Shown here one piece after another: positions 1,270 through 2,373 of a DNA stretch of 64,000 nucleotides (its first letter is position 1; each line of letters starts with the position of its first letter). This stretch comes from Escherichia coli (GTDB lineage: Bacteria; Pseudomonadota; Gammaproteobacteria; Enterobacterales; Enterobacteriaceae). Position numbers and translations under genes: made by a program. The notes beneath the pieces are model-generated. The model ran no database searches and had not been told where the DNA came from. It saw nothing but the letters and a program-made list of their open reading frames with translations. The DNA lies in assembly GCF_051903065.1 (NCBI RefSeq), contig NZ_CP178438.1; one strand, 5' to 3'.

Positions 1270-2373
1270 GTCATGCTCTCCGTATCCTTACAGGGTTAAT
1301 GATTCGTATTAAGTCGTAGCCATCCGCATGGCTCCGGGCGATTCAGTCGGCGCACCAGGATGTACACTTCGGATGCGTTCTTGATGTAGTAAACAATCCG
1401 CTCATTCTGGTGTTAATGGAAACACCCGTAAAAAGCAGGAGGAATGCCAGTTATTGGCGAATTTACAATGCTGCCATCGGGGTGAGTTTCATGAAGATTA
1501 TTATTTTTTTTACGCCTTGTATCATCGCGGTAAATAATAATTTCTTCCTGTGTTTCATAAAGTATATAGTTACAATTACTCGTGAATTTTATCGATAACT
1601 CGACGTTAGCCTTCAGCCAGAGAAAAATTAACTCGCAAATTTTTTAATTTATCGTTAGGGGAATGGATAAATTATATTCTCGACCCTAATTACAGGGTTC
1701 ATCTGAAAGCAGTGGCGTCTCATCTTATTACTTCTCTTTCTGTATTCATGCTAGTGGGTTTGTGATAATGTCATAGTAGAAAAATCGTGAGAAAAAAGCC
1801 CTGAACAATTATTAACTTATTGATTTTTGTGTGTTGGTGTTTTTGGTGATTGATTTTCACGATGATCTATTACTTCTGGTTAAGATTTCTATTTTTATTA
1901 TGTGTGACTTTATTAATGCGCATCCTGCTTCGTTTTATCGTGATTTAGAGTTGTATATAGCTTTAGCCATAAAATGATATCACTGGACATATAATAAGGG
2001 GGATTATAATTTCTTGGGTTAATTACGCACTATCAAAAATCGCTCATTCCAGACTTAAATACACGTTTTCTCCTGTTTAGGTTGTGGGCAAAAAATTCGA
2101 TGAGGAGATGAGGTATAATTTCATTCACAACCTTATCACTATCTATTAATAAGCAAAAAACAACGTTCTTTTGTGAAACGACTAACTGAAAATTCAACCC
2201 TTCGGGGCACGCTGCAGCGAGTTTGTCGCCACCAACATTCGTACAAGCTTCATCTGCCGGGCGAAACGTCAGCTAAATACCTTAAAATAATCGCTTTTTT
2301 CTCCGGATTTGATCTCCTCATTTTTACATTCCAACATCATTTTATAAACATTCCGCTTGTATTTTTCTTTAGC

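What the first reader, a model, noticed from the sequence alone, without database searches (positions are those of the whole stretch)
1270..2373. About 1.1 kb of AT-rich, ORF-poor DNA between the island-like gene and the efeU promoter
No convincing ORF on either strand; composition is markedly more AT-rich than the flanking coding sequence, with long A/T runs. Such spacers are typical of horizontally acquired junctions, H-NS silenced regions, or complex promoter regions. It may hold the promoter of the left-edge gene and an element boundary.
Basis: inference. Interest (0 to 1): 0.4.

Follow-up and report, generated by a model that had tools for sequence, protein, structure and literature searches.

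The report
AT-rich spacer of an accessory islet
The 1.1 kb stretch is real non-coding, AT-rich DNA that belongs, with one uncharacterised gene, to an old strain-variable segment between putP and efeU carried by about 12% of E. coli; it is an ordinary kind of feature with a few conserved sub-blocks of unknown role.

Summary
Window 1270-2373 has 37% G+C against about 50% in the flanks, three times the window's density of A/T runs, and no ORF that survives comparison between alleles. The interval is not uniform. The AT-rich core is 1451-2200 (33% G+C); 1270-1450 and 2201-2322 have normal composition.

The DNA is absent from K-12. It forms, with a 447-aa orphan gene (Sakai ECs1262), a ~2.5 kb segment that replaces the whole putP-efeU spacer. 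The locus has three structural alleles in 5,426 complete genomes: long (643), K-12-type (3,563) and short (1,195).

There is no integrase, tRNA or att-like repeat. The gene's synonymous divergence equals that of efeU, so this is an old polymorphism, not a recent insertion.

Inside the spacer, 1270-1519 and 2020-2169 are conserved below the synonymous rate. The stretch 1520-2019 evolves at or above it, with 12-18% divergent haplotypes that recombine.

The shared efeU promoter lies right of ~2320 (Fur box 2374-2391; published TSS maps to 2392).

Best reading: a non-coding upstream and silencing region of the orphan gene. H-NS binding is inferred, not shown. Interest is low.

The parts
1..1269 (-). 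First 423 codons of a 447-aa orphan gene (Sakai ECs1262, EDL933_RS07105). The gene runs off the left edge of the window to position -74.
   Evidence: Translation and RefSeq annotation of the identical genome. It is intact at 1344 nt in all five alleles compared, with dN/dS 0.14-0.61 (0.33-0.61 between deep alleles) and dS up to 0.12. ECs1261 is putP and ECs1262 is absent from K-12.
1270..1519 (-). Conserved block a: the proximal upstream region or leader of the orphan gene, with near-normal G+C (49% over 1270-1450, about 40% in 1420-1519). It has a GGAGAG Shine-Dalgarno sequence 6 nt before the ATG and an 11-bp indel site at 1419/1420.
   Evidence: Nucleotide diversity is 0.004-0.031 among 11 alleles. 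Divergence K is 0.02-0.04, against dS of about 0.1 in the adjacent gene (Fisher p 0.0003-0.007 for window versus deep alleles). The folding z-score is -0.5 and there are no compensatory pairs.
1520..2019 (.). Hypervariable AT-rich core with no conserved ORF.
   Evidence: G+C is 24-42% per 50 bp and diversity reaches 0.17, with indels. Three haplotype groups differ by 12-18% in 1751-2000 and group differently in 1501-1750, which indicates a recombination mosaic. K is 0.11-0.21, at or above dS.
1586..1673 (.). Cluster of three near-consensus matches to the H-NS high-affinity motif TCGATAAATT.
   Evidence: Three of the 11 matches in the 64 kb window fall here. P = 0.002 for the count and 0.0005 for the clustering under a first-order Markov model of the region. 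The sites are not conserved in the other haplotypes.
2020..2169 (.). Conserved block b: AT-rich but conserved, with a perfect TATAAT at 2114-2119 on the + strand. Role unknown.
   Evidence: Diversity is 0.017-0.033 among 11 alleles despite 28-40% G+C. Sequence read. The block is absent from K-12-type and short alleles.
2199..2237 (.). Copy of a short dispersed intergenic repeat. It is the only match to the K-12 spacer left of 2321.
   Evidence: 90% identity to K-12 L002 5728-5766 and to the dusC-yohP spacer L010 3011-3049. Alignment score 58, against 17.6 +/- 2.4 in shuffles.
2238..2320 (.). Junction segment specific to the long allele. K-12 has 239 bp with a sequence I read as a REP element here instead.
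2321..2450 (+). efeU promoter and 5' UTR, shared by all alleles. Candidate -35 TTGTAT at 2357-2362, candidate -10 GATAAT at 2379-2384, Fur-box-like site at 2374-2391, TSS at 2392.
   Evidence: 97% identity to K-12 from 2321, and 97% to the short allele from 2348. Diversity is at most 0.016. The Fur-box match is the only one in the window, with 0.04 expected. The EDL933 TSS at 1410675 lies 59 nt upstream of the efeU ATG at 1410734. The hexamers are read from the sequence by eye.
2451..3281 (+). efeU, intact here.
   Evidence: Annotation. The gene is frameshifted in K-12 C600.

Best explanation
The interval is the non-coding half of an accessory segment of about 2.5 kb. In roughly 12% of E. coli this segment replaces the whole spacer between the putP stop codon and the efeU core promoter.

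It has four parts:
- A 250-bp conserved block next to the orphan gene's start codon, with near-normal G+C. I infer this is the gene's leader and proximal regulatory region.
- A ~500-bp AT-rich core that carries no information under selection. It evolves at or above the synonymous rate and recombines between haplotypes.
- A 150-bp conserved AT-rich block of unknown role.
- A junction containing a dispersed repeat.

The most likely function is that of an upstream silencing and insulating region. AT-rich, A-tract-rich DNA of this kind is the usual substrate of H-NS-type nucleoid proteins. That would keep the orphan gene off under laboratory conditions and separate it from the divergent, Fur-controlled efeU promoter.

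Shown: composition, absence of coding or known RNA signal, allele structure, conservation profile, position of the efeU promoter. Inferred: H-NS binding, silencing, and the assignment of block a as a leader.
For: - Absent from K-12. Three structural alleles account for 5,401 of 5,426 genomes: long 643, K-12-type 3,563, short 1,195.
- Always single copy at the same locus.
- No ORF is conserved, and there is no Pfam, NCBIfam or Rfam signal.
- The conservation profile has two constrained blocks and a fast-evolving core.
- 33% G+C, enrichment of A/T runs, and a significant cluster of H-NS-motif matches.
- No TSS within 250 bp upstream of the orphan gene in eight conditions in EDL933, but several antisense TSS inside it.
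- A natural IS1-associated deletion of 1270-2152 leaves both neighbouring genes annotated as intact.
- The efeU TSS and Fur-box-like site lie right of 2320, in DNA shared by all alleles.
Against: - H-NS occupancy was not measured, and the motif cluster is not conserved in the other haplotypes.
- The orphan gene itself has normal G+C (49.5%), which is unlike typical silenced foreign genes.
- The gene's promoter was not found. The supplementary TSS tables I could read are truncated, so a TSS more than 250 bp upstream, or an orphan TSS in the spacer, cannot be excluded.
- Nothing I tested explains the conservation of block b.
Confidence: 0.6

Rival explanations
1. The spacer is the decayed remnant of one or more former genes of the islet, for example a gene once co-transcribed upstream of the orphan gene. 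Block a would be its best-preserved 3' part.
For: In strain 504239 a 98-codon minus-strand ORF spans block a and ends overlapping the orphan gene's ATG. The window allele differs there by an 11-bp deletion. Block a has near-normal G+C and is conserved at a level typical of coding sequence.
Against: The ORF is interrupted in the other four alleles translated, by a stop codon in caps25a and by the frameshift in the window, O157 and O145 alleles. It has no Pfam match, and to my eye its composition looks like an out-of-frame translation. A RelE/ParE-like peptide I thought I recognised got no support from Pfam or NCBIfam and carries a stop in one allele. There is no DNA homology to phages in protein mode or to plasmids in DNA mode beyond E. 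coli chromosomal copies.
Confidence: 0.15
2. One of the conserved blocks encodes an unannotated small RNA or small protein.
For: Both blocks are conserved below the synonymous rate. There is a perfect TATAAT at 2114-2119. Plus-strand TSS at EDL933 1409551 and 1409452/4 map to window 1268 and 1169/1171 and read into block a.
Against: No Rfam match. No excess folding stability and no compensatory pairs. No terminator-like site between 1270 and 2320. No small ORF is kept intact across alleles. The Sakai Ribo-seq supplement does not mention ECs1261 to ECs1263 in its tables, which is weak evidence because those tables may index small ORFs by coordinates rather than by neighbouring gene.
Confidence: 0.1
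3. It is the junction of a recently acquired mobile island, with an att-type boundary.
For: Sporadic distribution (12% of genomes) and low G+C of the spacer. A weak 18-nt inverted repeat lies near both ends (L001 11794-11811 and 14146-14163, 83% complementary).
Against: No integrase or other mobility gene, no tRNA, no flanking direct repeats. dS of the orphan gene (0.08-0.12 between deep alleles) is similar to that of efeU (0.05-0.10). The segment is always at one locus, and nothing related turns up in phages. The short inverted repeat lies in AT-rich DNA and is probably chance.
Confidence: 0.05
4. It is an extended, complex regulatory region of efeUOB.
For: It lies directly upstream of efeU, and a perfect -10 hexamer faces efeU at 2114-2119.
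Against: 88% of genomes lack it. In the short allele a putP terminator-like hairpin with a T-run lies about 40 bp from the shared promoter DNA. The only efeU TSS reported within 250 bp of the start codon is at 2392 in all conditions. A natural deletion removes 1270-2152.
Confidence: 0.05

Closest known systems
K-12 putP-efeU intergenic region
   Same: Same chromosomal position. The rightmost ~130 bp (efeU promoter, Fur-box-like site, 5' UTR) is 97% identical.
   Different: K-12 has 413 bp in place of about 2,540 bp. That 413 bp includes what I read as a REP element, plus dispersed repeats. Only a 39-bp repeat copy is shared. Homology ends at the putP stop codon.
H-NS-bound AT-rich regions upstream of accessory genes (xenogeneic silencing; general knowledge, not tested here)
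   Same: 33% G+C, A-tracts, a cluster of near-consensus H-NS motifs, an accessory gene with no detected TSS in laboratory conditions, and antisense TSS in the neighbourhood.
   Different: The adjacent gene has normal G+C. Occupancy was not measured. The motif cluster is specific to this haplotype.
Intergenic-region switching, in which alternative non-homologous spacers sit between conserved core genes in E. coli populations (concept recalled from the literature, not looked up here)
   Same: Three mutually non-homologous spacers lie between the same two core genes, with sharp breakpoints at the putP stop codon and at the efeU core promoter.
   Different: One of the alternatives also carries a complete 447-aa gene, so this is an islet polymorphism rather than a pure promoter swap.
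Small strain-specific islands of E. coli O157:H7 relative to K-12 (O-islands)
   Same: Present in O157:H7 and absent from K-12. ECs1262 has been used as an O157 typing locus.
   Different: It is not specific to O157. It also occurs in O145 and in several unrelated lineages with alleles up to 9% divergent. I did not verify an O-island number.

Membership tests
Orthologue of the K-12 putP-efeU spacer | Collinear alignment across the interval | tested here: not met
   Only 2199-2237 (a dispersed repeat) and positions from 2321 onward align. Similarity on the left flank is not above shuffles.
Integrative genomic island | Integrase or other mobility gene in the segment | tested here: not met
   The only annotated gene between putP and efeU is the 447-aa hypothetical.
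Integrative genomic island | Flanking direct (att) repeats, or insertion at a tRNA or tmRNA gene | tested here: not met
   No direct repeat spans the boundaries and no tRNA was found.
Integrative genomic island | Evidence of recent acquisition (divergence lower than, or composition different from, the core) | tested here: not met
   Gene dS is 0.08-0.12 between deep alleles, against efeU at 0.05-0.10. Gene G+C is 49.5%.
H-NS-silenced region | G+C well below the genome average, with A-tracts | tested here: met
   32.9% G+C over 1451-2200; 5.4 A/T runs per kb against 1.7 in the window.
H-NS-silenced region | High-affinity nucleation motifs | tested here: inconclusive
   Three near-consensus sites at 1586-1673 (P about 0.002), but they are not conserved in the other haplotypes.
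H-NS-silenced region | H-NS occupancy, and derepression in an hns mutant | not testable with these tools
   No ChIP or mutant data were available. The only indirect evidence is the absence of a TSS within 250 bp of the orphan gene in EDL933.
Known RNA family (Rfam) | Covariance-model match | tested here: not met
   No match at E <= 1 in window 1-3500 on either strand.
Structured cis-regulatory leader | Excess folding stability or compensatory base changes | tested here: not met
   z-score -0.53. None of 64 predicted pairs shows a compensatory change; covariation term -0.03. The sequences vary little, so the test is weak.
RelE/ParE toxin pseudogene | Profile match of the translated fragment | tested here: not met
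   No Pfam or NCBIfam hit at E <= 10. The frame carries a stop in strain 504239.
Fur-regulated efeU promoter | Fur box overlapping the -10 hexamer, and a mapped TSS | tested here: met
   15 of 18 bases match at 2374-2391, the only such site in the window. The published TSS maps to 2392. This element lies outside the finding's interval, apart from the flanking -35 region.

The most novel reading that the evidence does not exclude
The two conserved non-coding blocks (1270-1519 and 2020-2169) are functional control elements, or an unannotated RNA, for an ancient accessory gene that encodes a previously undescribed HTH-like repeat protein. On this reading the 12-18% divergent, recombining haplotypes of the core between them are kept by balancing selection on expression state rather than by neutral drift.
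Probability: 0.12. Interest if true: 0.45.

Novelty: new member of a known kind. Interest (0 to 1): 0.2.

Why it matters
The result mostly tidies the map. The putP-efeU spacer is a three-allele polymorphism in E. coli. The iron-transport promoter of efeUOB is confined to about 130 bp that all alleles share. The extra kilobase in O157:H7 and other lineages is non-coding DNA tied to an unstudied orphan gene. If that DNA is bound by H-NS, it could affect how far silencing spreads toward efeU in the strains that carry it. The orphan gene's repeat domain, shared with plasmid-borne SET-domain methyltransferases, may be the more interesting lead.

Tried and rejected
- **RelE/ParE-like pseudogene.** I read the minus-frame peptide ERIVYYIKNASEVYILVRRL (about 1300-1420) as toxin-like from memory. 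It has no Pfam or NCBIfam support and carries a stop in one allele.
- **Small ORFs as genes.** Five ORFs of 48-88 aa and nine further stop-free stretches gave no family match. Four of the five ORFs are frameshifted in other alleles.
- **Known RNA families and tRNA.** Rfam at a permissive threshold and a tRNA scan found nothing.
- **Promoter and terminator scans.** The number of hits was no higher than in shuffled sequence.
- **RNA structure of block a.** No excess stability and no covariation.
- **Left-flank homology between the K-12 and long alleles.** It looked plausible by eye but is not above shuffles.
- **Phage or plasmid origin.** The spacer DNA matches only E. coli chromosomal copies among the plasmid records. 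The protein has no phage match.
- **Relatives in other species.** The genome scan returned only a 2.8 kb contig in a 'Collinsella' MAG at 92% identity, which is probably E. coli contamination. I could therefore not decide which allele is ancestral.
- **Structure of the orphan protein.** Prediction from the single sequence was useless (pLDDT 35). With an alignment the C-terminal half is confident, but fold searches gave only weak matches.
- **Literature.** Searches for locus tags found only a typing table and a putP expression entry. A search for 'OI-46' found nothing.

Full report
**Where the window comes from.** The window is E. coli chromosome, 100% identical over 1-3300 to strain ECNB21-M121. 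The gene order is putA, putP (+), a 447-aa hypothetical gene on the minus strand (window -74 to 1269), the interval under study, then efeU-efeO-efeB (+; efeU ATG at 2451).

**Observation.** Window 1270-2373 is 37.0% G+C, against 49.5% for the gene to its left and 51-57% in efeU. A/T runs of six or more are three times as frequent as in the window as a whole.

The interval is not uniform:
- The AT-rich core is 1451-2200 (32.9% G+C), the third-lowest 750-bp stretch of the 64 kb.
- 1270-1450 is 49% G+C.
- 2201-2322 is 47.5% G+C.

The longest ORF with a start codon is 88 aa. None of the ORFs or longer stop-free stretches has a meaningful Pfam or NCBIfam match. Alignment of five natural alleles shows indels that frameshift four of the five ORFs. 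The fifth overlaps the efeU promoter on the opposite strand; part of it was once annotated in EDL933 (RS07110) and has since been dropped. Rfam, a tRNA scan and simple promoter and terminator scans add nothing.

**Relation to K-12 and the population.**
- K-12 homology ends exactly at the putP stop codon (window -222) and resumes at 97% identity at about 2321.
- In between, K-12 has 413 bp where the window has about 2,540 bp. The single significant match is 39 bp (2199-2237; score 58 against 17.6 +/- 2.4 in shuffles).
- That block also occurs in the dusC-yohP spacer, so it is a dispersed repeat and not evidence of orthology.
- A third, short allele (219-bp spacer, e.g. strains N61, ATCC 11775, ATCC 25922) has a putP terminator-like hairpin about 40 bp from the shared promoter DNA. 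It shares only window 2348-2450 at high identity.
- Among 5,426 complete genomes, 643 carry the long allele, 3,563 the K-12 type and 1,195 the short one.
- The long allele is always single copy at this locus. It occurs in O157:H7, O145 and several other lineages.
- One strain has an IS1 insertion with loss of the equivalent of 1270-2152, and both neighbouring genes are still annotated as intact.

**Not a recent island.** The segment has no integrase, no tRNA and no direct repeats at its ends. The orphan gene is intact in all five alleles compared. Between deep alleles its dN/dS is 0.33-0.61 and its dS 0.08-0.12, comparable to efeU in the same strains (dS 0.05-0.10). The segment has therefore been in E. 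coli about as long as these lineages have been diverging. Whether the difference arose by insertion or deletion could not be decided, because my one scan of other species returned only a likely contaminant.

**Internal anatomy from 11 alleles.**

| Window | Diversity (pi) | Notes |
|---|---|---|
| 1270-1519 (block a) | 0.004-0.031 | K 0.02-0.04, three to five times below the gene's synonymous divergence (Fisher p 0.0003-0.007). The last 70 nt before the ATG are invariant except for one O157 change. An 11-bp indel sits at 1419/1420. |
| 1520-2019 (core) | up to 0.17 | Many indels. Three haplotype groups 12-18% apart in 1751-2000. |
| 2020-2169 (block b) | 0.017-0.033 | Conserved although AT-rich. 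|
| 2320-2470 | at most 0.016 | Shared efeU promoter and start of efeU. |

In the core, the haplotype grouping changes between 1501-1750 and 1751-2000. For example, the O145 allele is 1.2% from the window in the first zone and 18.4% in the second, so the haplotypes recombine. The core thus evolves at or above the synonymous rate, as unconstrained DNA would.

**What block a is not.** It shows no excess folding stability (z -0.53) and no compensatory pairs. In one strain a 98-codon minus-strand ORF spans it, but the ORF is broken in the other four alleles translated and has no family match. A RelE/ParE resemblance that I recalled was not borne out.

**Transcription evidence.** A published Cappable-seq study of EDL933 (PMC10469882) searched for gene TSS within 250 bp upstream of start codons in eight conditions. 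EDL933 coordinate minus 1,408,283 gives the window coordinate.
- efeU has one TSS in every condition at 1410675, which is window 2392. This is immediately after a Fur-box-like site at 2374-2391, the only one in the window.
- The orphan gene (RS07105) has no such TSS. It does have several antisense plus-strand TSS, including one at window 1268.
- The tables held for this paper are truncated. Orphan TSS inside the spacer cannot be excluded.

**H-NS.** Three of the window's 11 near-consensus matches to TCGATAAATT fall within 1586-1673. This is unlikely even for DNA of this composition (P about 0.002 for the count, 0.0005 for the clustering). The motif itself is quoted from my knowledge of the H-NS literature. 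The sites lie in the most variable stretch and are not conserved in the other haplotypes. H-NS binding remains an inference from composition.

**The neighbouring gene.**
- In the word-based search it has only close E. coli relatives. An exhaustive HMMER search finds distant ones.
- Residues 28-163 are about 42% identical to a domain that occurs twice in two short proteins.
- Residues ~240-430 are three copies of a ~60-residue repeat. This repeat forms long tandem arrays in proteins of up to 2,136 aa, several with SET domains.
- These include SET-domain lysine methyltransferases on large Salmonella plasmids; the one I examined is a conjugative IncFIB plasmid.
- With an alignment, the repeat region folds confidently (pLDDT above 90).
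- The Pfam hint to the PipB2 N-terminal domain is far below threshold.
- The function is unknown; DNA binding is a weak guess.

**Conclusion.** The interval is the non-coding, largely AT-rich upstream region of an old accessory gene. It sits inside a three-allele polymorphism of the putP-efeU spacer. The suggestion of a horizontally acquired junction with att-like repeats is not supported. The kind of feature is familiar. The conserved blocks and the divergent recombining core are mildly interesting loose ends.

Noticed in passing
window 1-1269 (gene continues to -74); L001 11926-13269: The orphan protein's C-terminal half is three ~60-residue repeats. They fold confidently (pLDDT above 90 with an alignment) and have no significant PDB match. 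The same repeat forms tandem arrays in SET-domain lysine methyltransferases on large Salmonella plasmids (the one examined is conjugative IncFIB) and in proteins of up to 2,136 aa.
   Followed up: partly
window 2451-3281: efeU is intact in this strain, whereas RefSeq marks it as frameshifted in K-12 C600.
   Followed up: no
L004 3248-3945 (strain eco-241): A natural variant has an IS1 inserted next to the orphan gene and lacks the equivalent of window 1270-2152. Most of the spacer is therefore dispensable for viability.
   Followed up: partly
window ~50-1268, + strand (EDL933 1408336-1409551): The published Cappable-seq data list at least eight antisense TSS inside the orphan gene, and none for the gene itself within 250 bp of its start.
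   Followed up: partly
L002 5634-5777 (K-12 spacer) and L010 2839-3060 (dusC-yohP spacer): The K-12 putP-efeU spacer is built partly from short dispersed intergenic repeats present two to five times per genome. One 39-60 bp unit is shared with the dusC-yohP spacer and with window 2199-2237. I did not identify the repeat family.
   Followed up: partly
window ~13600-18200 and ~24600-25700: These are the other AT-rich stretches of the window (31-35% G+C). From the coordinate mapping they fall near dgcT, an EAL-domain gene and an element carrying IS1 copies, a tyrosine recombinase and a YfjI-family gene. An inovirus Gp2-like gene and a TOTE conflict-system fragment lie just beyond, at about 26.8-27.9 kb.
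   Followed up: no
L009 (contig JAIJJM010000433.1): A 2.8 kb contig assigned to a Collinsella metagenome-assembled genome encodes the orphan protein at 92% identity. This is probably E. coli contamination of the bin.
   Followed up: no
H105, NZ_CP134663.1 4021700-4022101: An unannotated stretch elsewhere in an E. coli chromosome encodes a 40% identical relative of the orphan protein's N-terminal domain, in two places.
   Followed up: no
L001 11812-11863 (window -188 to -137): A 21-nt imperfect inverted repeat (81% complementary, 10-nt loop) lies between the convergent stop codons of putP and the orphan gene. It may act as a bidirectional terminator.
   Followed up: no
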